Shown here: positions 13,452-22,244 of the stretch, piece by piece
Position numbering within the stretch: the first letter of the stretch is position 1
How the letters are laid out: each line of letters starts with the position of its first letter
Origin: Candidatus Altiarchaeales archaeon
GTDB lineage: Archaea; Altiarchaeota; Altiarchaeia; IMC4; SCGC-AAA252-I15
Direction of reading: 5' to 3'
Assembly (NCBI GenBank): GCA_014727915.1
Contig: WJMO01000006.1
Coordinates: 130,137 to 194,136 of the forward strand
DNA length: 64,000 bases
Notes under the pieces: model-generated
What the model was told of the DNA's origin: nothing
What the model saw: only the letters and a program-made list of their open reading frames with translations
The model's database searches: none
Program-made: the position numbers and the translations under genes

Positions 13452-14576
13452 TTGCAATTATATACCATGCGGTGGTTGGTGGCGTCAGCTCTAGTTTTAT
13501 TCGTCTCGGGTTGCATATTCGAGGATCCGGTGATATCCGAGGCTGTTGAGAAGAAGGACCCGGGACTCTGCCTGACGCTCGAGGAATACAGGAGCAGGAG
13601 GGAGTGCTTCCACAAGGTCGCGGTGGCAGCCGGGGACCGGAGCATATGCGACGAATACAGCAAGGAACTCTACGGTGACGCCTGGCAGATGTGCCTTTCA
13701 TCGGTCGCAGTGGAAAATGACGACGTAAGCATCTGCGACAGCATCAACACAACCCTGCATAAGAGCGGGTGCAAGAGCGACATAGCGATAATGCGCAACT
13801 CGACAAGCCTCTGCGAACAAGCTGAGGAAGAACGTGATAGAGACGATTGCAGGTCGCAGATATCAATCAACACAAACAACGTAAGCCTATGCCATGAGGT
13901 AGAGAACGAGTTCACTAAAGACAATTGCATGGGAAAGCTGGCCAAGAAAAACAGCAATCCACAGTTATGCCAGCACATAGAAAGCCGGGTTATGCGGGAC
14001 GTATGCTATGATGAACTGGCGGTTGTTACAGACGATCCTGGGGTCTGCGATGGCATGAGCGAGGGCAATAGCATCGCATGCAAGGCAAAAGTCACCGGAG
14101 ACTCCGGCCTATGCGACAGCCTGGACCCCGGCAAGTTCAACGTCGACCAGTGCATATTGGACGCTGCCAGGAACTCCCTGAAGGAAAGCGACTGCGCTAG
14201 GATAGGGACCGAACACATGAGGCAGATATGCTACAATAACATCGGGGGGGCATCGGGCAGGCCTGAACTCTGCGACAAATCAGGAGACTTGAAGGGGTTC
14301 TGCCTGAAAGACGCCGCCATCTCAGCAGCTAATCCAGAGTACTGCAAGGGCATCAATGAGGTTGGACAGAGAGACAAGTGCATAACGGAAGCAACGGAAG
14401 CCTCCGACACCATGAAGGGATGCGACCTCATTGAAGACGACGAGCGTCGTGAGGACTGCATGAGCAACTGGGTGGAGGAACACCCGGAAGAGCAGGGGCC
14501 TATTTACCGGACGAAGGAAAGGATAAAGGAGAAGGTGGGGGAAGTGGTTGCCAACGCACTTTTGGGTGAGAACTAA
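13452..14576 (+). CDS. Lipoprotein built from ~28-aa cysteine-pair repeats
   Basis: Signal peptide with lipobox-like SGC; recurring spaced Cys pairs across ~300 aa; acidic. Confidence 0.55.
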   Translation: MQLYTMRWLVASALVLFVSGCIFEDPVISEAVEKKDPGLCLTLEEYRSRRECFHKVAVAAGDRSICDEYSKELYGDAWQMCLSSVAVENDDVSICDSINTTLHKSGCKSDIAIMRNSTSLCEQAEEERDRDDCRSQISINTNNVSLCHEVENEFTKDNCMGKLAKKNSNPQLCQHIESRVMRDVCYDELAVVTDDPGVCDGMSEGNSIACKAKVTGDSGLCDSLDPGKFNVDQCILDAARNSLKESDCARIGTEHMRQICYNNIGGASGRPELCDKSGDLKGFCLKDAAISAANPEYCKGINEVGQRDKCITEATEASDTMKGCDLIEDDERREDCMSNWVEEHPEEQGPIYRTKERIKEKVGEVVANALLGEN

Positions 14577-14923: not shown

Positions 14924-15109
14924 ATGGAAAGCTCTGAAAGCGGGAAAAAAGACAGATATAAGTGCAAAGTATGCGGTTACGTGTACGACCCAGAGAAGGG
15001 AGACCCTATTTCTAATATAAAGCCCGGAACAGCCTTCAAGGACATTCCAGAAGGGTGGACGTGCCCGGTTTGCGGCGTTGGAAAAGACCAGTTCGAGAAG
15101 ATAGAGTAG
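14924..15109 (+). CDS. rub: Rubredoxin
   Basis: [10 protein letters not shown]...W.CPVCG signature; TATA-like TTTATATT ~20 nt upstream. Confidence 0.85.
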
Positions 15110-15230: not shown

Positions 15231-15443
15231 GTGGCCAGACAAGGCGACAGACACAAGTGCGGAGTATGTGGCGTGGAGATCATATGCGTAGAAGGCTGCG
15301 GTTGCAGGAAACCCCGTCTGGTATGCTGCGGGAAGGCGATGAGGAAAAAGACAGGCCGGAAGACAGTGAAGAAGAAGGCCGAGAAAAGCGTTAAGAAGAC
15401 CGCTAAGGCCAAGATTAGGAAGGCGGACAATAAAAGGATATGA
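15231..15443 (+). CDS. Desulforedoxin-like (CxxCG...CC) protein with lysine-rich C-terminal tail
   Basis: GDRHKCGVCGVEI...LVCCGKAM matches desulforedoxin Fe(Cys)4 motif; ~30-aa K-rich tail; GGAGGTGA SD 7 nt upstream of GTG. Confidence 0.6.
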   Translation: MARQGDRHKCGVCGVEIICVEGCGCRKPRLVCCGKAMRKKTGRKTVKKKAEKSVKKTAKAKIRKADNKRI

Positions 15444-15449
15444 GGGCGT

Positions 15450-16640
15450 ATGATGGCATGGGAGATGAAAGACGGGATACATAATGTCGGAGCGGTGGAC
15501 TGGGACAGGAGATTGTTCGACGAGCTGATACCACTGCCCGACGGCACAAGCTACAACGCATACCTGGTGAGGGGAAGCGAGAAGACCGCGCTCATAGACA
15601 CGGTAGACCCAACAAAAGAGGATGAGCTGTTCGAGAACCTGGAGAGAACAGGAGTGGACCGGCTGGACTATGTTATACCCAACCACGCTGAACAGGACCA
15701 TTCGGGGACGATACCCAAGGTCCTGGAGAGATACCCAGAAGCAAAGGTAGTGACCAACGGAAAATGCAAGGAGTTCCTGATTGACCTGCTGCACATACAA
15801 GACGACAAGTTCCAGGTGGTGGAGGACGGCGAAACCCTCTCACTTGGGGACAGGACGCTTGAATTCATAATAGCACCGTGGGTCCACTGGCCCGAGACCA
15901 TGCTCACATACCTAAGAGAGGACAGGATACTCTTCTCATGCGACCTGTTCGGGTCCCACCTGGCAACCAGCGACAAGTATGTGAAAGACGAATCCAAGGT
16001 GTTGGAAGACGCCAAGAGATACTACGCGGAGATCATGATGCCCTTCAGAAAGCTGATCAACGGGCATCTGGAGAAGCTGAGGGGATACGACATCGAAGTC
16101 ATAGCAGCCAGCCACGGACCATTGTATGACAGGCCTGAATCCATAATGGAGGCATACAGGGATTGGACCTCAGACGACGTTAAAAACGAGGTGGTGATAG
16201 CGTACGTGTCGATGCACGGAAGCACCGAGAGGATGGTTGAACGCTTCGCCAACACCCTTATCGAGCGCGGCATCCGGGTAAGGCCGTTCAACCTGGCCGG
16301 GTCTGATGTGGGAGAGCTTGCTATGGCTCTTGTGGACGCTGCAACCCTGGTTGTCGGCACCCCAACGGTCCTGGCAGGACCGCACCCCGCAGCCGTTTAC
16401 GCGGCATATCTCGCGAACGCATTGAGGCCCAAGACACGGTATGCGACGGTCATAGGATCATACGGGTGGGGGGGAAGGACAGTGGACCAGGTCAAGAGCA
16501 TGCTGCAGAACCTTAGCGTCGAATTCCTCGAGCCGGTGATAGTCAAAGGGCTTCCGAGAGCGGATGACATGAGAGAACTCGACCGGCTGGCAGACAGCAT
16601 ACTTAAAAAGCACCAGGAACATAACATCATAGGTGAATAG
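15450..16640 (+). CDS. fprA: Flavodiiron protein (metallo-beta-lactamase + flavodoxin domains)
   Basis: 396 aa; diiron site HAEQDHSG; C-terminal flavodoxin-like domain. Confidence 0.85.
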   Translation: MMAWEMKDGIHNVGAVDWDRRLFDELIPLPDGTSYNAYLVRGSEKTALIDTVDPTKEDELFENLERTGVDRLDYVIPNHAEQDHSGTIPKVLERYPEAKVVTNGKCKEFLIDLLHIQDDKFQVVEDGETLSLGDRTLEFIIAPWVHWPETMLTYLREDRILFSCDLFGSHLATSDKYVKDESKVLEDAKRYYAEIMMPFRKLINGHLEKLRGYDIEVIAASHGPLYDRPESIMEAYRDWTSDDVKNEVVIAYVSMHGSTERMVERFANTLIERGIRVRPFNLAGSDVGELAMALVDAATLVVGTPTVLAGPHPAAVYAAYLANALRPKTRYATVIGSYGWGGRTVDQVKSMLQNLSVEFLEPVIVKGLPRADDMRELDRLADSILKKHQEHNIIGE

Positions 16641-17117
16641 GTGCCTGAAATGGAAGGGGAAGAACTGCGTAAGAGCATACAGGAGTACATCGAAGGGCAC
16701 AACGTCTGCACCATAGCGGTGACAGACGGCGAGAACCCCTCGGCCCATACCATGTACTACGTGAGCCACGGCATCCACATATACCTGGAATCAGACCCCA
16801 ACTCCCAGAAGATACACGTGCTAAATGCAAACCCCAGGATATCATTGACCATAGACGAGGACTACCAGGACTGGAGGCAGATAAAGGGCATACAGCTTTT
16901 CGGACGCGCCAACCTGACGGACGAAAGGCATGCCCCAAGGCTTCAGGAAGCCTTCTCGAGGAAGTTCCCCCACATAAACGACCTCGGAGGCATACCCAAT
17001 CATCACATCTTCATAGAGGTAATACCAGAGAAGATATACTACATGGACTTCACTGAAAAGTTCGGGCAGAGGAACATATACTACGTTGACGAGAAAAAAT
17101 CCGTTATAAACTGGTGA
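16641..17117 (+). CDS. Pyridoxamine 5'-phosphate oxidase-like FMN-binding split-barrel protein
   Basis: 158 aa; PNPOx-like pattern; ATG overlaps upstream stop. Confidence 0.6.
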   Translation: MPEMEGEELRKSIQEYIEGHNVCTIAVTDGENPSAHTMYYVSHGIHIYLESDPNSQKIHVLNANPRISLTIDEDYQDWRQIKGIQLFGRANLTDERHAPRLQEAFSRKFPHINDLGGIPNHHIFIEVIPEKIYYMDFTEKFGQRNIYYVDEKKSVINW

Positions 17118-17177
17118 CCCGTCAGTTACTTGACCGTAACCCTTGCATTTATACGCCTGTAAGACGGATAATGACCT

Positions 17178-17822
17178 GTGAAAGAGGGACTGCCGCTTCT
17201 CGCGTTGCTTGTCATATTCTCAGGGTGCCTTCAGACGCAGGTAATAGGGTTGGACGGGGTTGAAGTCCGGGACTACGAGGGCAAGGACCTGTCCTCCATA
17301 AACGACTTCAGGGAGAACTCCATCCGGGGGCCGCAGCAAATAAACGCAAGCACATACAGGTTGGAGGTCACTGGATTGGTCGACAACCCGGGGGAATACA
17401 CCTACGAGGACATCCTGAACCACCAGCGATACTCCAAGATAGTAACCCTATACTGTGTTGAAGGATGGGATGTCACCATACTATGGGAGGGAGTGCTCGT
17501 CAGGGACCTGTTGGAAGAAGCGGAAGTCATGCCGGAAGCCGACACCGTGATATTCCACGCCCAAGACGGTTACAGCACGTCACTGCCCCTCAGCTACTTC
17601 ACGGAAAACGACATAATACTCGCCTACAGCATGAACAACGTCACCCTCCCGGCGGAGCGGGGGTTCCCCTTCCAGCTTGTCGCAGAGGACAAGTGGGGAT
17701 ACAAGTGGGTGAAGTGGGTTACTGAAATCGAGGTTTCGGACGAGCCGGACTACAGAGGATACTGGGAGACCCGCGGATATAACCAGGACGGGTCCGTTGA
17801 CGGCCCCGTATTCGAGAGATGA
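17178..17822 (+). CDS. Molybdopterin-dependent oxidoreductase (sulfite oxidase/MsrP-YedY family), lipoprotein
   Basis: Signal peptide + SGC; Mo-ligand context LYCVEGWDV. Confidence 0.7.
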   Translation: MKEGLPLLALLVIFSGCLQTQVIGLDGVEVRDYEGKDLSSINDFRENSIRGPQQINASTYRLEVTGLVDNPGEYTYEDILNHQRYSKIVTLYCVEGWDVTILWEGVLVRDLLEEAEVMPEADTVIFHAQDGYSTSLPLSYFTENDIILAYSMNNVTLPAERGFPFQLVAEDKWGYKWVKWVTEIEVSDEPDYRGYWETRGYNQDGSVDGPVFER

Positions 17823-17852
17823 GCTTAAATAGACAGCATCACATTCAAGACT

Positions 17853-18062
17853 ATGGCAGTGGCTGAGATCGCATACGCGGAATTCGCGGGCGTTGCGTTG
17901 ATAGTCTGGTCCGGGATATCCTCGCTGGCCCTGGTGGTTCTGACCGCCCTAACGGGCAGGAACTTGCTGCCTGTGAAATACCACAGGAAGCTGGCTTTTG
18001 CTGCGATCTTCTTCGCATTTGGCCATGGCATCCTGGCTGCAGCCGCAAACCTTGGGCTCTGA
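17853..18062 (+). CDS. Small membrane protein (2 TM), hypothetical
   Basis: 69-aa hydrophobic ORF directly after the Mo-oxidoreductase gene. Confidence 0.35.
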   Translation: MAVAEIAYAEFAGVALIVWSGISSLALVVLTALTGRNLLPVKYHRKLAFAAIFFAFGHGILAAAANLGL

Positions 18063-18122
18063 ACAAGGTAACCAATAGGATACCCCAAGGTTTATATTGG
18101 ACAACAACCAAATAGAGAATGC

Positions 18123-18141
18123 AGTTTACAAAAGTAACCAT
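18123..18141 (+). promoter_or_regulatory. Conserved promoter motif AGTTTACAAAAGTAACCAT (copy 2), upstream of glutaredoxin/TrxB operon
   Basis: Identical to 15158-15176; extended similarity (acaacaa...tagag) on the 5' side; ~42 nt upstream of ATG 18183. Confidence 0.5.
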
Positions 18142-18182
18142 GTCTGGTTTTATATGTGTTAAAAGAAGTAGGTGATGCAAGT

Positions 18183-18419
18183 ATGGACAAGATAAAAGTG
18201 TACTCGACCCCGACATGCCCCTGGTGCAAGAAGCTGAAGGGATGGTTGGACGAGAAAGGAGTCAAATACGAGGACTTTGACGTCTCCTCAGACCACGAGG
18301 CAGCCCGTGAGATGATAGAGAAGAGCGGACAGATGGGAGTGCCCCAGACAGACATCGGAGGCAAGGTCATAGTGGGATTCGACCCGGACTCCATCGAGAA
18401 GGAATTAGAAGATGCATGA
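18183..18419 (+). CDS. Glutaredoxin/NrdH-like thiol-disulfide oxidoreductase
   Basis: CPWC active site; ATG 18183 preceded by GGTGA; track start 18156 is probably too early. Confidence 0.75.
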   Translation: MDKIKVYSTPTCPWCKKLKGWLDEKGVKYEDFDVSSDHEAAREMIEKSGQMGVPQTDIGGKVIVGFDPDSIEKELEDA

Positions 18420-19314
18420 TACAGTGATCGTGGGAGGGGGAATAGCAGGTTTGACCGCGGCACTGTACGCCTCAAGGAAGCGGATGGACTACCGCATAAT
18501 CTCCTCAGAGATGGGAGGCCAATTCTACGCCAGCGGGGAGATACTCAACTACCCCGGAGTCGTCGAAACCGACGGCGTTGAATTCCAGAAGACCATGGAA
18601 GAGCAGATGAGGAAAAACGACGTCGAAGTGGTCAGAGAGACAGTCGAGAAAGTGGAAAGGGCAGGAGAAGACTTCAACGTGATTACAGACAAGAGAGAAT
18701 ACGAGACGAAGACCGTAATATTAGCAACTGGAGCCCGCCCAAGGAAGCTTGGAGTCCCAGGGGAGGAGAAGCTCCTGAAGAAGGGCGTGACATACTGTAG
18801 CATATGCGACGGACCCCTCTTCAATGCCATGGACGTGGCAGTCATAGGCGGGGGAAACTCCGCACTGGAGGCGGTGGACTTCATAGGGGACATAGCATCC
18901 AAGATATACGTGCTGACGAACGAGGCGGAATTCAGAGCGCACGAATACCTCCAGGAAAAGGCAAAGGACAACCCAAAGGTGGAGGCAATGTTCAACGCAG
19001 ATATCAAGGAGATAGCAGGTGATGAGTTCGTCAATTCGTTGAAGTACGAGGCAGACGGCAGGGAGAGGACGATAGATGTGAAAGGCGTGATAATCGAGAT
19101 AGGCAGGACGCCGAACACTGAGAATTTCAAGGACCTGGTCGAAACAGACAATGAAGGCCACATAAAAGTTGACTGCCGCGCGCAGACCAGCACAGCCGGT
19201 GTGTTCGCAGCGGGAGACTGCACGGACGGGCACGAATACCAGTACGTGATAGCCGCAGGCCAGGGCTGCATGGCCCTTCTAAAGGCCGCACGCTACCTAG
19301 CGATGAACAGGTAA
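18412..19314 (+). CDS. trxB: Thioredoxin-disulfide reductase
   Basis: Two GxGxxG/A dinucleotide motifs and redox-active CSICDG. Confidence 0.85.
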   Translation: MHDTVIVGGGIAGLTAALYASRKRMDYRIISSEMGGQFYASGEILNYPGVVETDGVEFQKTMEEQMRKNDVEVVRETVEKVERAGEDFNVITDKREYETKTVILATGARPRKLGVPGEEKLLKKGVTYCSICDGPLFNAMDVAVIGGGNSALEAVDFIGDIASKIYVLTNEAEFRAHEYLQEKAKDNPKVEAMFNADIKEIAGDEFVNSLKYEADGRERTIDVKGVIIEIGRTPNTENFKDLVETDNEGHIKVDCRAQTSTAGVFAAGDCTDGHEYQYVIAAGQGCMALLKAARYLAMNR

Positions 19315-19335
19315 ATAACATATTAGGTGATGTAA

Positions 19336-19824
19336 ATGGGCACAAGAGGACGGGAAATCGTCGGTTTGGACGTTGAAAAGCTCATAGTAGAGCTGAACAG
19401 GGCATTGTCAGACGAATGGCTGGCATACTACCAGTACTGGATAGGGTCGAAAGTCGTTGTGGGCCCGATGAGGGACGCGGTCGTGGCGGAGCTGACAGAG
19501 CACGCTAACGACGAGCTAAGGCACGCCGGAATGCTCGCCGACAGGATAATGCAGTTGGAAGGCGCGCCAGTGCTGAAACCAGAGGAATGGTATGACATGT
19601 GCAACTGCGGATACGACAGCCCAGATGACCCAGCAGTCAGGAAGATACTAGACCAGAACATCAAAGGCGAGCAGTGCGCGATAGACGTGTACAACAAGAT
19701 CATGAAGATGACAGAGGGCAAAGACCCCATAACATACCAGATGGCCTTCGAAATCATGAGAGACGAGGTAGAGCACGAAGACGACCTGCAAGCCATCGCA
19801 GAGGATATCAAAGGAATCAAATGA
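19336..19824 (+). CDS. Ferritin-like/Dps-like diiron protein
   Basis: 162 aa; four-helix-bundle ferritin-like carboxylate/His pattern. Confidence 0.65.
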   Translation: MGTRGREIVGLDVEKLIVELNRALSDEWLAYYQYWIGSKVVVGPMRDAVVAELTEHANDELRHAGMLADRIMQLEGAPVLKPEEWYDMCNCGYDSPDDPAVRKILDQNIKGEQCAIDVYNKIMKMTEGKDPITYQMAFEIMRDEVEHEDDLQAIAEDIKGIK

Positions 19825-19835
19825 GGTGAAAAAGA

Positions 19836-20219
19836 ATGAGCACAAAAGAAAGGGGCGAAGTGTACAAGTGCAACGTCTGCGGCAACATCGTTGAGGTGCT
19901 GATCGTTGGCGGTGGAGAGCTAGTATGCTGCGAAAAGCCCATGGAACTTTTAGAGGAGAAGACAGAGGATGAGGGCAACGAAAAACACGTGCCAGTCATA
20001 GAGAAGACCGAGGACGGCGTTAAGGTGAAGGTCGGGAGCGTGCCACACCCCATGGAGGAAAAGCACCACATCCAATTTATCGAAGTGCACTCTGACGGGA
20101 TGATACACCGGAGATACCTGAAGGCAGGAGACAAGCCAGAAGCGGATTTCATACTGTCCTCGGAAGTGCAGAAGGCCCGGGAATACTGCAACATACACGG
20201 CCTCTGGGGTAGCGGATAA
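19836..20219 (+). CDS. dfx: Desulfoferrodoxin (2Fe superoxide reductase)
   Basis: N-terminal desulforedoxin motif CNVCGNIV...VCCEKPM; SOR domain KHVPVIE...HH...CNIHGLW. Confidence 0.85.
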
Positions 20220-20220
20220 G

Positions 20221-20367
20221 GTGACGGGAAAGAGGCACTGGCGTTGCAACGTCTGCAACGACATACACTACGGCAACGCAGGCCCCAAAGTCTGCCCTAC
20301 CTGCAACGTGGAGAACGCATACGTCGAGGTAGACACTGAAGAAGCCAGGAAAGTGATGGGACTATGA
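20221..20367 (+). CDS. Small rubredoxin-like zinc-ribbon protein (48 aa), not in ORF track
   Basis: GTG start 2 nt after dfx stop; WRCNVCNDIHYGNAGPKVCPTCN (CxxC-x16-CxxC); stop overlaps ATG of next gene (ATGA). Confidence 0.5.
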   Translation: MTGKRHWRCNVCNDIHYGNAGPKVCPTCNVENAYVEVDTEEARKVMGL

Positions 20368-20630
20368 ACAAGGAGGAACTGCTCGAGGCCTGGAAGAGGT
20401 TCACGGAAAAGAACGACTTCAGGCTGAACCCGGACAAGGAGCACGTGGACATGATACTGGACGGCGTTCTAGCTAACGAGAAGGAACACGGCCTGAAGCT
20501 CTGCCCCTGCAGGATCCGGGACGGCACCAGAGAAAGAGACCTTCAGCTCATCTGCCCCTGCAACTTCAAAACCCACGAAACATGGGCTGAGAAGGGACAA
20601 TGCTGGTGCGGGCTTTTCGTGAAAAGATGA
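20364..20630 (+). CDS. Ferredoxin:thioredoxin reductase catalytic-subunit-like protein
   Basis: CPC...CPC...CWC spacing characteristic of FTR catalytic subunit. Confidence 0.7.
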   Translation: MNKEELLEAWKRFTEKNDFRLNPDKEHVDMILDGVLANEKEHGLKLCPCRIRDGTRERDLQLICPCNFKTHETWAEKGQCWCGLFVKR

Positions 20631-20642
20631 GCCATGCACGCC

Positions 20643-21023
20643 CTAGGTTATGGCCATGTGGCATTGGGCCCTGACAGAAGGGTCCGATATCCTATCGCAT
20701 AGTTTACGGTTGCCAGTCGCCACCCCGACCCTGCCGATGCAAAGTTCCCTATGTTCCGGTACAGAGACCTTATCGCATATTTTAACGTCCATGAGCTCAG
20801 AGGCGGTGTTAATGTAACACAGGTCCTTGAGATTTCCCTCACGCCCCTCACACGCACCCGGGTCAGTGTACTCTGCAGTGGGCTCGCCCGCGTCATCTTC
20901 CGCCCGTGGGTCCTCTGGCATCATATTCGGCCTTGAAGGCACTGCAACGGCAGCCCCGCCAACACCCTCCCCTCCAATGCACCCGCATAAGAGCAGAATA
21001 GAGAGTACTGCGAAGAATCTCAT
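20643..21023 (-). CDS. Lipoprotein with cysteine-pair repeats (same family as 13452..14576)
   Basis: Signal peptide + CGC; DLCYINTAS...KICDKV...RELCIG...RKLCDRISDP...AQC. Confidence 0.5.
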   Translation of the reverse strand: MRFFAVLSILLLCGCIGGEGVGGAAVAVPSRPNMMPEDPRAEDDAGEPTAEYTDPGACEGREGNLKDLCYINTASELMDVKICDKVSVPEHRELCIGRVGVATGNRKLCDRISDPSVRAQCHMAIT

Positions 21024-21029
21024 AGCATA

Positions 21030-21587
21030 CTATTCGACATACCTGTTCTTATATGCGAACTCGCTGGCTTCCTTCCGGGGAGGCCTCTGCTTCTCCCCCA
21101 GTCTCTGCTTCTCGCTCAGATAGTCGGGGACGGACTCACTGTGCCTGCCCACAACCAACAAGGCTATGACCTCGTATTCGCCGGGTATGCCAAGAACCTC
21201 GCGCACCTTCTTGGGGCTGTAGCCCGCGATGGGATGGGCCACCAAACCTAGTTCGGTGGCTTGGAGGATCATGAAGGCCGTCGCCAAACCGACGTCGAAG
21301 TTGTTATAAACGCGATCCTTTATCACGCAGTCATCGTCTGGCTTGCTGAAGACAGCCACTATCAGCGAAGCCTCCCTAGCCCACCTATTGCCATCTGACA
21401 GGGCCCCATGAAGCTCGGACAACACCGCAGGATCGTATGCGAGCACGTAGCGCCAGGGCTGGTTGTTGTTGCAGGAGGGAGCGAGGCGGGCGGCAGACGC
21501 AAGATCATCGACCAACTCTTCCGTTACCTCGAACTTCTCCAGGGCACGGTAAGCCCTCCTCCCCTCAATGGCCTCGCGGACATCCAC
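21030..21587 (-). CDS. Nitroreductase-family protein
   Basis: 185 aa; nitroreductase-like FMN-binding pattern (RRAYRAL...PSCNNNQPW). Confidence 0.7.
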   Translation of the reverse strand: MDVREAIEGRRAYRALEKFEVTEELVDDLASAARLAPSCNNNQPWRYVLAYDPAVLSELHGALSDGNRWAREASLIVAVFSKPDDDCVIKDRVYNNFDVGLATAFMILQATELGLVAHPIAGYSPKKVREVLGIPGEYEVIALLVVGRHSESVPDYLSEKQRLGEKQRPPRKEASEFAYKNRYVE

Positions 21588-21588
21588 T

Positions 21589-22089
21589 TTACATCGTAAC
21601 GGTCTTGAAGTCGTGGAACTCCCCCGTTTCGGTCACGAACTCCGCCTCAGACTCGAGTATGGAACGGTGCTTCTCCTCCTCCTTGACCATCTTTTCGAAG
21701 AATATCTTGGACTCGTCGTCGGGGGCGTTCGCGGACATCCAATTGTAGAGGTCGATGCTGTTCTCCTCCGCCTTTATGGCGATGTTCAGCGCATCCAAGG
21801 CGTCAGCCATGTCGTCCAAGCTGCCGCCTGGAACTTTCTCCTCGAAGACGCCGCTAGGGTCGTATTCCTTCTTCGAATCCACGTACATGCAATACTGCTC
21901 GTCGTATAACCGCTTGTATACTTCAGCGATGTTGTTAAAATGCACCCGCTCCTCGGAGGCGAGATGCTCGAACATTGCACTACCGTCCTTGTTGTATGTC
22001 TTCTTCGCGCAGCCCAGGTAGAAAGCCTCACCCTCCAACTCCAGGTCCAACGCCCTGTTAAAACCCTCGCAAACGTCCTTCACATCCAT
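21589..22089 (-). CDS. Rubrerythrin-family ferritin-like diiron protein (no rubredoxin domain)
   Basis: E..E..H diiron pairs; ATG at 22089 preferred over TTG 22110; TATA-like box ~22 nt upstream. Confidence 0.65.
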   Translation of the reverse strand: MDVKDVCEGFNRALDLELEGEAFYLGCAKKTYNKDGSAMFEHLASEERVHFNNIAEVYKRLYDEQYCMYVDSKKEYDPSGVFEEKVPGGSLDDMADALDALNIAIKAEENSIDLYNWMSANAPDDESKIFFEKMVKEEEKHRSILESEAEFVTETGEFHDFKTVTM

Positions 22090-22244
22090 TTTGAAACCAC
22101 ATTTTTTCAAATTTTTTAAAATATTTCCGAATTATTTAGGAATTTCCCAAAACAATTTATAACCCGTAGGGTATATAAAAGACTTGGTATGCGCGGAGTT
22201 ACCTGGTTCTATTTTAAAAGAGAACCACATCTGATTAAAACACG

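What the first reader, a model, noticed from the sequence alone, without database searches (positions are those of the whole stretch)
20221..20367. Unlisted 48-codon rubredoxin-like ORF translationally coupled to an FTR-like gene
A GTG-initiated ORF (WRCNVCN...CPTCN) fills the gap between dfx and the FTR-like gene and overlaps the latter's start (ATGA). It looks like a split version of the rubredoxin-FTR fusion proteins I recall from methanogens.
Basis: partly seen in the sequence, partly recalled or inferred. Interest (0 to 1): 0.55.

Follow-up and report, generated by a model that had tools for sequence, protein, structure and literature searches.

The report
Rubredoxin-like partner gene of FTR-like reductase
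The 48-codon ORF is a real, strongly conserved gene for a tiny four-cysteine (rubredoxin-like) protein that always sits directly in front of, and is sometimes fused to, an iron-sulfur disulfide reductase related to ferredoxin:thioredoxin reductase, so the two most likely form one two-subunit enzyme in an oxidative-stress operon.

Summary
Observation confirmed. Window 20221..20367 (+) is a GTG-started 48-codon ORF (Cx2C-x12-Cx2C). It begins 1 nt after the dfx stop, and its TGA overlaps the ATG of the 88-aa FTR-like gene (20364..20630).

It is not new to databases. GenBank lists it as hypothetical protein GF416_04595 of a Candidatus Altiarchaeales MAG.

Evidence that the gene is real:
- It passes Pfam PF21349 (rubrerythrin-type rubredoxin-like domain).
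- It folds confidently (pLDDT 93.8). Its best solved match is the rubredoxin domain of the Methanosarcina acetivorans ferredoxin:disulfide reductase (4TPU).
- It is under purifying selection (dN/dS 0.09-0.30).

Link to the FTR-like gene:
- In all 30 distinct related loci examined (DPANN archaea, Altiarchaeota, CPR bacteria, a Dehalococcoidales MAG), a homologue lies directly upstream of the FTR-like gene.
- It is fused in frame in 3 loci, and at least 10 further fused clusters exist.
- No other neighbour is constant.

The Methanosarcina fusion has the opposite domain order (FTR then rubredoxin) and a Tyr active-site residue. This clade has Trp (CWC), and here two genes are the rule while fusions look derived.

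Most likely the small protein is the Fe(Cys)4 electron-relay subunit of a two-subunit disulfide reductase. This is inferred, not shown.

Verdict: new variant of a known kind, moderate interest.

The parts
20221..20367 (+). Gene for a 48-aa rubrerythrin-type rubredoxin-like protein (C9-x2-C12-x12-C25-x2-C28), GTG start, TGA stop
   Evidence: sequence; PF21349, 32.8 bits against gathering score 26.5; GenBank GF416_04595, 100% identity; invariant Cys, K4, R8, D14, H16, G18, P22, P26, T27; dN/dS 0.09-0.30; AF2 pLDDT 93.8; best solved match is the 4TPU rubredoxin domain, rmsd 1.2 A
20364..20630 (+). Gene for an 88-aa FTR-like / ferredoxin:disulfide-reductase-like catalytic subunit with C47-P-C49, C64-P-C66, C80-W-C82
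   Evidence: PF02943, 67 bits against gathering score 22; 4TPU E 2.6e-16, 7PWE E 2e-15, plant/cyanobacterial FTRc E about 7e-3; all six Cys align; CPC..CPC..CWC in all 27 full-length relatives
20364..20367 (+). ATGA overlap of the small gene's stop with the FTR-like start (inferred translational coupling)
   Evidence: The same overlap, or stop + 1 nt + ATG, is found in nearly all unfused related loci
20206..20210 (+). GGGGT, a possible Shine-Dalgarno-like element 10 nt upstream of the GTG (weak; alternatively re-initiation after the dfx stop at 20217-20219)
   Evidence: homologues mostly carry GGAGGT/GAGGT/GGGGGT 5-9 nt before their ATG. Function is inferred only
19836..20219 (+). Desulfoferrodoxin (superoxide reductase) gene immediately upstream, same strand, 1-nt spacer
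   Evidence: PF06397 + PF01880
19336..19824 (+). Ferritin/Dps-like gene, same apparent operon
   Evidence: PF00210, 96 bits
18412..19314 (+). Thioredoxin-reductase-like flavoprotein gene, same apparent operon. It is a recurrent neighbour of the pair in other genomes
   Evidence: PF07992, 158 bits; a TrxR homologue within 3 kb in 9 of 30 loci, directly upstream in 6
18156..18419 (+). Glutaredoxin-like small redoxin (CPWC) gene, first gene of the apparent operon; candidate disulfide substrate
   Evidence: PF00462, 72.6 bits; Grx-like homologue near the pair in 5 of 30 loci; 7PWE is a natural glutaredoxin/FDR fusion

Best explanation
The ORF encodes the small subunit of a two-subunit ferredoxin:disulfide-reductase-type enzyme. 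The 48-aa protein folds as a rubrerythrin-type rubredoxin knuckle whose four invariant cysteines bind one metal, most likely iron as Fe(Cys)4. It is made in step with the 88-aa FTR-like protein through the overlapping stop/start, and it binds that protein.

The FTR-like subunit carries the six cysteines that in FTR and FDR hold an active-site [4Fe-4S] cluster next to a redox-active disulfide. The Fe(Cys)4 centre would take single electrons from a low-potential donor (ferredoxin or similar) and pass them to the [4Fe-4S] cluster. That cluster reduces the active-site disulfide, which in turn reduces a small redoxin. The best candidate substrate is the glutaredoxin-like protein encoded at 18156-18419 in the same operon. 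The system serves thiol repair in an oxidative-stress island.

Shown:
- The gene is real and under selection.
- Its domain type and predicted fold.
- It is always adjacent to the FTR-like gene, and the two are repeatedly and independently fused.
- The six-Cys motif of the partner.

Inferred:
- Iron rather than zinc.
- Physical complex formation.
- The direction of electron flow, the donor and the substrate.
For: 1. Real coding gene: PF21349 above threshold; 377 homologue clusters; invariant Cys4; dN/dS 0.09-0.30; AF2 pLDDT 93.8.
2. Obligate pairing: all 24 loci retrieved with the FTR-like protein from one-genome-per-species contigs carry the small ORF directly upstream or fused. Loci retrieved with the small protein all carry the FTR-like gene directly downstream. 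Upstream neighbours differ between loci (dfx, rubrerythrin, TrxR, Grx-like, unrelated genes).
3. Fusions (Rosetta-stone argument):
   - same-order fusions P0031/P0058/P0074;
   - at least 10 further fused clusters at 50% identity, a 2xRd+FTR form (P0244), and opposite-order FTR+Rd forms (P0281, P0290);
   - at least 2 independent fusion events (different linkers, not sister in the NJ tree).
4. Precedent: the solved M. acetivorans FDR (4TPU) contains the same two domain types. The profile of the small protein family hits its residues 137-164 with identical Cys spacing (E 0.013). 4TPU is the best structural match of the window's model (rmsd 1.2 A over 37 columns). From my own knowledge (Kumar et al. 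2015 Biochemistry 54:3122; Prakash et al. 2018 JBC 293:9198; neither could be opened here), that rubredoxin centre binds iron and is postulated to relay electrons from ferredoxin to the [4Fe-4S] cluster, and FDR reduces a glutaredoxin-like protein.
5. Substrate hint: 7PWE is a natural glutaredoxin/FDR fusion, and a Grx-like gene heads this operon.
6. Context: Dfx/SOR or rubrerythrin within 3 kb in 14 of 30 loci, TrxR or Grx-like in 12 of 30, one or the other in 21 of 30 (after removing three self-hits of the small ORF to the rubrerythrin query).
Against: - No experiment or expression data for either protein.
- Metal identity cannot be read from sequence. Zn-binding MCM zinc ribbons match the model almost as well as the iron-binding domains do.
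- The AF2 model of a natural fusion has a low-confidence linker and pTM 0.57. Its alignment also had the Rd-only rows misplaced. It therefore gives no evidence for a defined interface or for a metal-to-cluster distance.
- Fe(Cys)4 centres usually have far higher potentials than protein disulfides (own knowledge), so a donor role works only as a relay behind a stronger reductant.
- The residue between the last two Cys is Trp in every member, not His (plant FTR) or Tyr (FDR), so the chemistry may differ.
- The operon already holds a TrxR-like reductase that could reduce the Grx-like protein by itself.
Confidence: 0.6

Rival explanations
1. The small protein is a structural zinc-ribbon subunit with no redox role. 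It would stabilise or shield the minimal 88-aa catalytic subunit, much as the variable subunit does in plant and cyanobacterial FTR. Electrons would enter the [4Fe-4S] cluster directly from ferredoxin.
For: - The fold is shared with Zn ribbons; MCM zinc-binding domains match with TM 0.63-0.69.
- The catalytic subunit is very short, matching only Pfam model positions 9-87 of 106, so it probably needs a partner.
- Strict pairing and fusion fit a structural partner equally well.
Against: - The closest sequence relatives are iron-binding domains: rubrerythrin E 5e-6 and the 4TPU rubredoxin domain.
- Residues conserved beyond the Cys (D14, H16, G18, as in the rubrerythrin V-H-x-G motif) follow the rubrerythrin pattern.
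- Forms with two tandem Rd-like domains (P0244, P0290, P0270) look more like an electron wire than a scaffold.
Confidence: 0.2
2. The small protein is mainly a free one-electron carrier for the neighbouring detoxifying enzymes (desulfoferrodoxin just upstream, rubrerythrin, flavodiiron protein), like the rbo-rub arrangement of Desulfovibrio. Its position next to the FTR-like gene would be secondary.
For: - It starts 1 nt after the dfx stop.
- Dfx/SOR or rubrerythrin genes lie within 3 kb in 14 of 30 related loci.
- The nearby rubrerythrin-like gene (21589-22110) lacks its own rubredoxin domain.
Against: - Dfx is the directly preceding gene only in the window, L004 and L029. The FTR-like gene follows in every locus.
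- The fusions are to the FTR-like domain, never to Dfx, in the sequences seen.
- The window encodes a canonical rubredoxin at 14924-15109 that can serve those enzymes.
Confidence: 0.1
3. The pair works in reverse, as a dithiol:rubredoxin-type oxidoreductase. Electrons would run TrxR -> Grx-like dithiol -> FTR-like disulfide/[4Fe-4S] -> Fe(Cys)4 -> superoxide reductase or rubrerythrin. This would split a two-electron thiol donor into the single electrons those enzymes need.
For: - TrxR and/or Grx-like genes, and Dfx/rubrerythrin genes, are the recurrent neighbours (21 of 30 loci have one or the other).
- Operons such as TrxR-...-SOR-Rd-like-FTR-like (L029) and Grx-TrxR-(ferritin)-Dfx-Rd-like-FTR-like (window, L004) have the right parts in one transcription unit.
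- Thermodynamics would favour thiol to Fe(Cys)4 (own knowledge of typical potentials).
- The invariant Trp in place of the catalytic His/Tyr marks a distinct chemistry.
Against: - There is no precedent for FTR/FDR running in this direction physiologically (own knowledge).
- 9 of 30 loci show none of these neighbours within 3 kb.
- Nothing here tests direction.
Confidence: 0.1
4. The ORF is a chance open frame or a decayed fragment of a rubrerythrin C-terminus, and is not expressed.
For: - It is short and starts with GTG.
- Its best database domain is the rubrerythrin C-terminal domain.
- JGI even names homologues 'rubrerythrin'.
Against: - Length (47-50 aa), N- and C-termini and junction are conserved across archaeal and bacterial phyla.
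- Synonymous sites are saturated while the protein stays 57-80% identical.
- In-frame fusions exist.
Confidence: 0.01

Closest known systems
Ferredoxin:disulfide reductase (FDR) of Methanosarcina acetivorans, MA1659, PDB 4TPU
   Same: - Same two modules: an FTR-like [4Fe-4S]/disulfide domain (E 2.6e-16, all six Cys aligned) and a rubrerythrin-type Cx2C-x12-Cx2C domain (profile E 0.013).
- It is the best structural match of the window's small protein.
   Different: - 4TPU is a single 173-aa chain with the FTR domain first and the rubredoxin domain last. Here there are two genes, with the rubredoxin-like one first.
- The active-site residue is Tyr (CYC) in 4TPU and Trp (CWC) here.
N-terminal rubredoxin-like/FTR-like fusion proteins of uncultured archaea (P0031, P0058, P0074, P0243-P0254), uncharacterised
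   Same: - Colinear with the window's two gene products: 65-75% identity in each part, the same CWC motif, and the same order.
- They differ only by a 7-25 residue linker in place of the stop/start overlap.
   Different: - They are one polypeptide.
- They are the minority arrangement (3 of 30 loci) and arose at least twice.
- No biochemical data exist for them.
Rubrerythrin C-terminal rubredoxin-like domain (PF21349; PDB 1RYT, 1B71, 9FJ2)
   Same: - Best sequence match (E 5e-6 to 1.4e-5; Pfam above threshold).
- Same Cys spacing and the same H-x-G after the first Cys pair.
- rmsd 1.7 A over 38-39 columns.
- In rubrerythrin the domain relays electrons to another metal site (own knowledge).
   Different: - Here it is a free-standing 48-aa protein, not attached to a diiron four-helix bundle.
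- Its constant partner is an FTR-like protein, not a rubrerythrin.
Plant/cyanobacterial ferredoxin:thioredoxin reductase heterodimer (catalytic + variable subunit; PDB 1DJ7, 2PU9)
   Same: - A small catalytic subunit with CPC..CPC..CxC (E about 7e-3; Foldseek E about 1e-2).
- That subunit is paired with a second small subunit encoded by a separate gene.
   Different: - The partner there is the metal-free variable subunit, unrelated to a rubredoxin fold.
- The active-site residue there is His.
- The catalytic subunit there is longer (107-117 aa in the solved chains, against 88).
Glutaredoxin/FDR fusion protein of Desulfotalea psychrophila, PDB 7PWE
   Same: The FDR-type domain (E 2e-15; top Foldseek hit). 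It shows that this enzyme family is linked to glutaredoxin-like substrates, one of which heads the window's operon.
   Different: - The N-terminal domain there is the substrate (glutaredoxin), not a rubredoxin-like module.
- It has a CYC motif.
Canonical rubredoxin (PF00301)
   Same: A four-Cys knuckle fold and small size.
   Different: - No PF00301 hit for the small ORF.
- Twelve residues between the Cys pairs instead of about 29.
- The genome's canonical rubredoxin is a different gene at 14924-15109 (87 bits).

Membership tests
Rubrerythrin-type rubredoxin-like domain (Pfam PF21349 RUBY_RBDX) | Scores above the Pfam gathering threshold | tested here: met
   32.8 bits against 26.5, residues 7-34 on model positions 1-28 of 30. 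Precomputed PF21349 is listed on nearly all homologues shown
Rubrerythrin-type rubredoxin-like domain (Pfam PF21349 RUBY_RBDX) | Four Cys as Cx2C-x12-Cx2C | tested here: met
   C9, C12, C25, C28; invariant in 28 and in 109 aligned sequences
Rubrerythrin-type rubredoxin-like domain (Pfam PF21349 RUBY_RBDX) | Rubredoxin-knuckle fold | tested here: met
   AF2 pLDDT 93.8. Superposes on the 4TPU rubredoxin domain (rmsd 1.2 A) and on rubrerythrin 1B71/9FJ2 (rmsd 1.7 A). This is a predicted structure, not a solved one
Rubrerythrin-type rubredoxin-like domain (Pfam PF21349 RUBY_RBDX) | Binds iron as a redox-active Fe(Cys)4 centre | not testable with these tools
   Zn ribbons of MCM match the model about as well. 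This needs metal analysis and spectroscopy
Canonical rubredoxin (PF00301) | Pfam match and CxxCG...CPxCG with about 29 residues between the Cys pairs | tested here: not met
   No PF00301 hit at E <= 1; the spacing is 12 residues. The true rubredoxin of the window is at 14924-15109
FTR/FDR catalytic-subunit family (PF02943), for the partner gene 20364-20630 | Pfam match above threshold | tested here: met
   67 bits against 22
FTR/FDR catalytic-subunit family (PF02943), for the partner gene 20364-20630 | Six Cys in CPC...CPC...CxC that ligate the [4Fe-4S] cluster and form the active disulfide | tested here: met
   C47/C49, C64/C66, C80/C82 align with those of 4TPU, 7PWE and Synechocystis FTRc. 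Present in all 27 full-length relatives
Plant-type FTR | Active-site His between the last two Cys (CHC) | tested here: not met
   Trp (CWC) in the window and in all 27 relatives
Plant-type FTR | Heterodimer with the variable subunit (FTRv) | not tested
   No FTRv-like gene is adjacent to the pair; the rest of the genome was not searched. The adjacent small gene is rubredoxin-like instead
Methanosarcina-type FDR (4TPU group) | Rubredoxin domain fused at the C-terminus of the FTR-like domain | tested here: not met
   Here it is a separate gene upstream. The FTR-like protein ends 6 residues after CWC. 4TPU has FTR at 2-88 and Rd at 137-164
Methanosarcina-type FDR (4TPU group) | Active-site Tyr (CYC) | tested here: not met
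   CWC here. CYC in 4TPU and 7PWE, and in the C-terminally fused P0281 and P0290
Methanosarcina-type FDR (4TPU group) | Ferredoxin-dependent reduction of disulfides or small redoxins | not testable with these tools
   Needs an enzyme assay
Two-gene Rd-like + CWC-type FTR-like module (the group defined here) | The small Rd-like gene lies directly upstream of the FTR-like gene, on the same strand, overlapping or <= 6 nt apart, or fused in frame | tested here: met
   Window plus 30 of 30 distinct loci

The most novel reading that the evidence does not exclude
The Rd-like/FTR-like pair is not a ferredoxin-driven disulfide reductase. It would be a thiol-driven single-electron generator: TrxR and the Grx-like protein deliver a dithiol, the FTR-like [4Fe-4S]/disulfide site splits it into two single electrons, and the Fe(Cys)4 subunit hands these to superoxide reductase, rubrerythrin or flavodiiron protein. 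Genome-reduced anaerobes (DPANN, CPR, Altiarchaeota) would thereby power O2/ROS detoxification without an NAD(P)H:rubredoxin oxidoreductase. The invariant Trp in the active site would be the signature of this reversed chemistry.
Probability: 0.1. Interest if true: 0.7.

Novelty: new variant of a known kind. Interest (0 to 1): 0.4.

Why it matters
FTR/FDR enzymes are the only known disulfide reductases that use an iron-sulfur cluster to couple one-electron carriers to two-electron thiol chemistry. Outside plants and cyanobacteria only a few have been studied.

This work shows that a compact two-gene version is the standard form in many uncultured, genome-reduced lineages. It consists of a 48-aa rubredoxin-like protein plus an 88-aa catalytic protein with a Trp in the active site. 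The lineages are DPANN archaea, Altiarchaeota, CPR bacteria and a Dehalococcoidales MAG. There the pair usually sits among the few oxidative-stress genes these organisms keep.

Three practical consequences follow:
- It gives a very small, tractable system (136 residues in total) for testing how a rubredoxin centre feeds, or is fed by, the FTR-type cluster.
- It corrects annotation. The small gene is labelled 'hypothetical' or wrongly 'rubrerythrin', and at least one gene call overrides it with an out-of-frame extension of the FTR-like gene.
- It shows that domain order in this family is free (Rd-FTR, FTR-Rd, 2xRd-FTR, separate genes). That argues for a loosely tethered electron-relay module.

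Tried and rejected
- **Exact-sequence look-ups.** The window's own two proteins returned nothing in the contig index. Context was obtained through close homologues instead.
- **Literature.** The key papers could not be opened by PMC id or DOI: Prakash 2018, Wei 2015, Balsera 2013. Full-text searches for the FTR-like/rubredoxin link, for 7PWE, and for FTR in DPANN found nothing relevant. Statements about FDR biochemistry therefore rest on my memory of those papers, plus one citing review sentence (PMC6262447).
- **First AF2 run.** The run on the natural fusion P0031 used an alignment in which MAFFT had placed the seven Rd-only rows on the FTR domain. That model (pLDDT 75.8) was used only for fold look-up, not for any inter-domain geometry.
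- **No coordinates.** The tools return no coordinates, so the Cys4-to-cluster distance could not be measured.
- **Rubrerythrin remnant: rejected.** The small ORF keeps its own start, length and junction in loci with no rubrerythrin nearby.
- **Dfx as primary partner: rejected.** This is the rbo-rub analogy. Dfx adjacency is not conserved.
- **Dfx-Rd read-through or frameshift product: rejected.** The frames differ (385 nt offset) and homologues have their own ATG and Shine-Dalgarno sequence.
- **NCBIfam.** It gave only sub-threshold hits (rubrerythrin C-terminus, RCKP-type rubredoxin-like, FtrB double-selenoprotein). No curated NCBIfam model passed its cut-off for either protein.
- **Self-hits removed.** Three apparent 'rubrerythrin' hits (L005, L007, L010) are the small ORF itself and were removed from the counts.
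Full report
**1. What is in the sequence**

- The desulfoferrodoxin gene (19836-20219; PF06397 + PF01880) ends with TAA at 20217-20219.
- One base later, GTG at 20221 opens a 48-codon frame, MTGKRHWRCNVCNDIHYGNAGPKVCPTCNVENAYVEVDTEEARKVMGL.
- Its TGA (20365-20367) overlaps the ATG (20364) of an 88-codon gene, which matches Pfam PF02943, the ferredoxin-thioredoxin reductase catalytic chain (67 bits, threshold 22).
- The frame is open back to 20122, but GTG 20221 is its first possible start. It is also the only start that retains the conserved N-terminal residues.

The window (52.6% G+C) comes from a Candidatus Altiarchaeales metagenome-assembled genome. Both proteins are in GenBank at 100% identity as hypothetical proteins GF416_04595 and GF416_04600.

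**2. Is it a gene?**

Yes.
- The product passes the gathering threshold of PF21349, the rubredoxin-like domain of rubrerythrin (32.8 against 26.5 bits). It does not hit canonical rubredoxin PF00301.
- A profile of 28 homologues finds 377 clusters in the 5.8-billion-protein collection, nearly all 47-50 aa.
- In an alignment of 109 of them, K4, R8, C9, C12, D14, H16, G18, P22, C25, P26, T27, C28 and E41 are invariant.
- Codon-level comparison shows saturated synonymous sites (mean pS 0.89) and few replacements (mean pN 0.22). dN/dS is 0.09-0.30 wherever dS can be estimated.
- AlphaFold2 with that alignment gives pLDDT 93.8: three short strands, two Cys knuckles and a C-terminal helix.
- The best solved match is the rubredoxin domain of the Methanosarcina acetivorans ferredoxin-dependent disulfide reductase 4TPU (rmsd 1.2 A over 37 columns). 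Rubrerythrin rubredoxin domains follow. Zn ribbons of MCM proteins score similarly, so the fold does not tell iron from zinc.
- All 27 homologues examined at the DNA level start with ATG, most with a GGAGGT/GAGGT-like element 5-9 nt upstream. The window's copy uses GTG with a GGGGT 10 nt upstream, directly behind the dfx stop.

**3. What it belongs to**

The decisive evidence is comparative.
- Using the FTR-like protein as probe, 24 loci were recovered from the one-genome-per-species collection. They are labelled Woesearchaeota, Nanoarchaeota, unclassified archaea, MAGs labelled Methanosarcinales, a Dehalococcoidales chromosome and two CPR Buchananbacteria.
- Every one has the small Cys4 ORF immediately upstream on the same strand.
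- Using the small protein as probe, the Altiarchaeota loci L001, L003 and L004 and the metagenome loci L029, L031 and L034 all have the FTR-like gene immediately downstream.
- Among the 27 loci, the junction is an ATGA overlap in 12 and stop + 1 nt + ATG in 8. Three have a gap of 2-6 nt, one (L004) a longer annotated overlap, and three are in-frame fusions.
- No other neighbour is constant. Within 3 kb, Dfx/SOR or rubrerythrin occur in 14 of 30 loci, TrxR or a Grx-like gene in 12, and one or the other in 21 (three self-hits removed).

**4. Fusions**

- P0031, P0058 and P0074 (139-140 aa; PF21349 + PF02943) are colinear with the window's two products. A 7-residue linker replaces the stop/start overlap.
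- A full HMMER scan of 1.84 billion representatives with P0031 finds at least ten further fused clusters at 50% identity (P0243, P0245-P0248, P0251-P0254, P0269).
- The same scan finds a form with two Rd-like domains before the FTR domain (P0244), a free tandem Rd-like protein (P0270), and opposite-order forms of the Methanosarcina type with one or two C-terminal Rd-like domains (P0281, P0290).
- In an NJ tree of the FTR-like parts, the fused L005/L007 and the fused L013 are not sisters, and their linkers are unrelated. This points to at least two independent fusions nested among split forms. The tree is short (88 aa) and poorly resolved, so this is indicative only.

**5. The partner protein**

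- The 88-aa product aligns end to end with the FTR-like domains of 4TPU (E 2.6e-16) and 7PWE (E 2e-15). It aligns more weakly with cyanobacterial and plant FTR catalytic chains (E about 7e-3).
- All six cysteines that hold the [4Fe-4S] cluster and the redox-active disulfide in those enzymes are present (C47-P-C49, C64-P-C66, C80-x-C82).
- The residue between the last two Cys is Trp in the window and in all 27 full-length relatives. It is Tyr in 4TPU, 7PWE, P0281 and P0290, and His in plant-type FTR (the roles of His and Tyr are from my knowledge of Dai et al. 2000 and Prakash et al. 2018).
- 7PWE is described by its depositors as a glutaredoxin/ferredoxin disulfide reductase fusion from Desulfotalea psychrophila. 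That ties the family to glutaredoxin-like substrates.

**6. Genomic setting in the window**

Genes 18156-20630 are all on the + strand with spacers of -8 to +21 nt: Grx-like (CPWC), TrxR-like, ferritin/Dps-like, Dfx, Rd-like, FTR-like. L004 from another Altiarchaeota genome has nearly the same order.

The neighbourhood holds further redox genes:
- Upstream: a canonical rubredoxin (14924-15109, PF00301 87 bits), a flavodiiron protein (15450-16640), a PNPOx-like protein and a molybdopterin oxidoreductase.
- Downstream, on the other strand: a nitroreductase and a rubrerythrin-like protein without a rubredoxin domain.

Together this is an oxidative-stress and thiol-redox island.

**7. Most likely mechanism**

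*Shown:*
- a real, selected gene;
- a rubrerythrin-type Cys4 fold (predicted structure);
- obligate adjacency and repeated fusion to a six-Cys FTR-like protein.

*Inferred:*
- The two products form a complex.
- The Cys4 site binds iron.
- That iron centre relays single electrons from a low-potential donor to the [4Fe-4S] cluster, which reduces the active-site disulfide and then a small redoxin, probably the operon's Grx-like protein.

This copies what is postulated for the rubredoxin centre of M. acetivorans FDR (own knowledge; PMC6262447, read, confirms only that FDRs are FTRc-related Fe-S enzymes of archaea and bacteria that reduce a Trx-type protein in Methanosarcina).

I put 0.9 or more on 'real gene, partner of the FTR-like protein' and about 0.6 on the relay mechanism.

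*Rivals:*
- a purely structural Zn-ribbon subunit (0.2);
- a free carrier for Dfx/rubrerythrin (0.1);
- reverse flow from thiols to the detoxifying enzymes (0.1);
- a chance ORF (0.01 or less).

**8. Comparison with what is known**

It works like, and is related to, the Methanosarcina FDR. It fails two features of that group: the C-terminal fused rubredoxin and the CYC motif. It also fails two features of plant-type FTR: the CHC motif and the variable subunit. It is best described as a distinct clade of the FDR family, with a CWC motif and the rubredoxin-like module encoded separately upstream or fused N-terminally.

I found no description of this arrangement in the searchable literature. Databases annotate both genes without linking them.

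**9. Verdict**

- New variant of a known kind. Interest 0.4.

Noticed in passing
window 14924-15109 (+): A canonical 61-aa rubredoxin gene (PF00301, 87 bits; CKVCG...CPVCG) lies about 340 nt upstream of the flavodiiron protein gene (15450-16640). The organism therefore has a classical rubredoxin in addition to the 48-aa rubredoxin-like protein.
   Followed up: partly
window 15231-15443 (+): A 70-codon GTG ORF whose N-terminus (HKCGVCGVEIICVEGCG..LVCCGKAM) resembles the desulforedoxin-like N-terminal domain of Dfx ([20 protein letters not shown]). It is followed by a lysine-rich tail. It gave no Pfam hit at E <= 0.01. Whether it is a real gene is unknown.
   Followed up: partly
window 18412-19314 (+): In the TrxR-like protein, the stretch after GGGNSALEA reads ...KIYVLTNEAEFRA, where NADPH-dependent thioredoxin reductases have HRRxxFRA (from memory of E. 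coli TrxB). The 2'-phosphate-binding Arg pair seems absent, so the enzyme may use NADH, F420 or ferredoxin rather than NADPH.
   Followed up: no
window 15450-22110: An oxidative-stress island: flavodiiron protein, PNPOx-like, molybdopterin oxidoreductase, Grx-like, TrxR-like, ferritin/Dps, Dfx, Rd-like, FTR-like, nitroreductase (-), and a rubrerythrin-like protein lacking its rubredoxin domain (-). Another Altiarchaeota genome (L004) has nearly the same order.
   Followed up: partly
window 13452-14576 (+) and 20643-21023 (-): Two predicted lipoproteins (signal peptide ending in a ..GC lipobox) with many regularly spaced Cys in repeats such as ..ICD....C... Neither has a significant Pfam hit. 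The smaller one is convergent with the FTR-like gene, 12 nt from its stop.
   Followed up: no
L028 3001-3263: In this archaeal MAG the FTR-like reading frame stops after 43 codons, although tblastn matches residues 1-88. The upstream Rd-like gene is intact. This is either a frameshift from assembly error or a pseudogene.
   Followed up: no
P0123 (129 aa, ENA metagenome): A gene call that extends the FTR-like gene upstream in the wrong frame, straight through the Rd-like ORF (MQRHPLRYGRTRDLPDLPGKKCVCRD...MNKEEL). This is an annotation error that hides the small gene. JGI also names many of the 48-aa proteins 'rubrerythrin'.
   Followed up: no
P0244, P0270, P0263, P0290: The Rd-like module is multiplied in some proteins: two copies before an FTR-like domain (P0244), two copies alone (P0270, 95 aa), two copies after an FTR-like domain (P0290), and five tandem copies alone (P0263, 296 aa).
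   Followed up: no
several homologues (e.g. P0135, P0164, P0165): Some 48-aa homologues carry a precomputed hit to Pfam PF27353.1 in addition to PF21349. That family did not appear in the Pfam scan of the window's protein here. It may be a newer model that already covers this small protein family.
   Followed up: no
L005, L007, L008, L022, L025, L027: Several MAGs titled 'uncultured Methanosarcinales archaeon' carry pairs nearly identical to those of Woesearchaeota/Nanoarchaeota MAGs. For example, L022/L027 cluster with L023/L024. This suggests mislabelled taxonomy or mixed bins.
   Followed up: no
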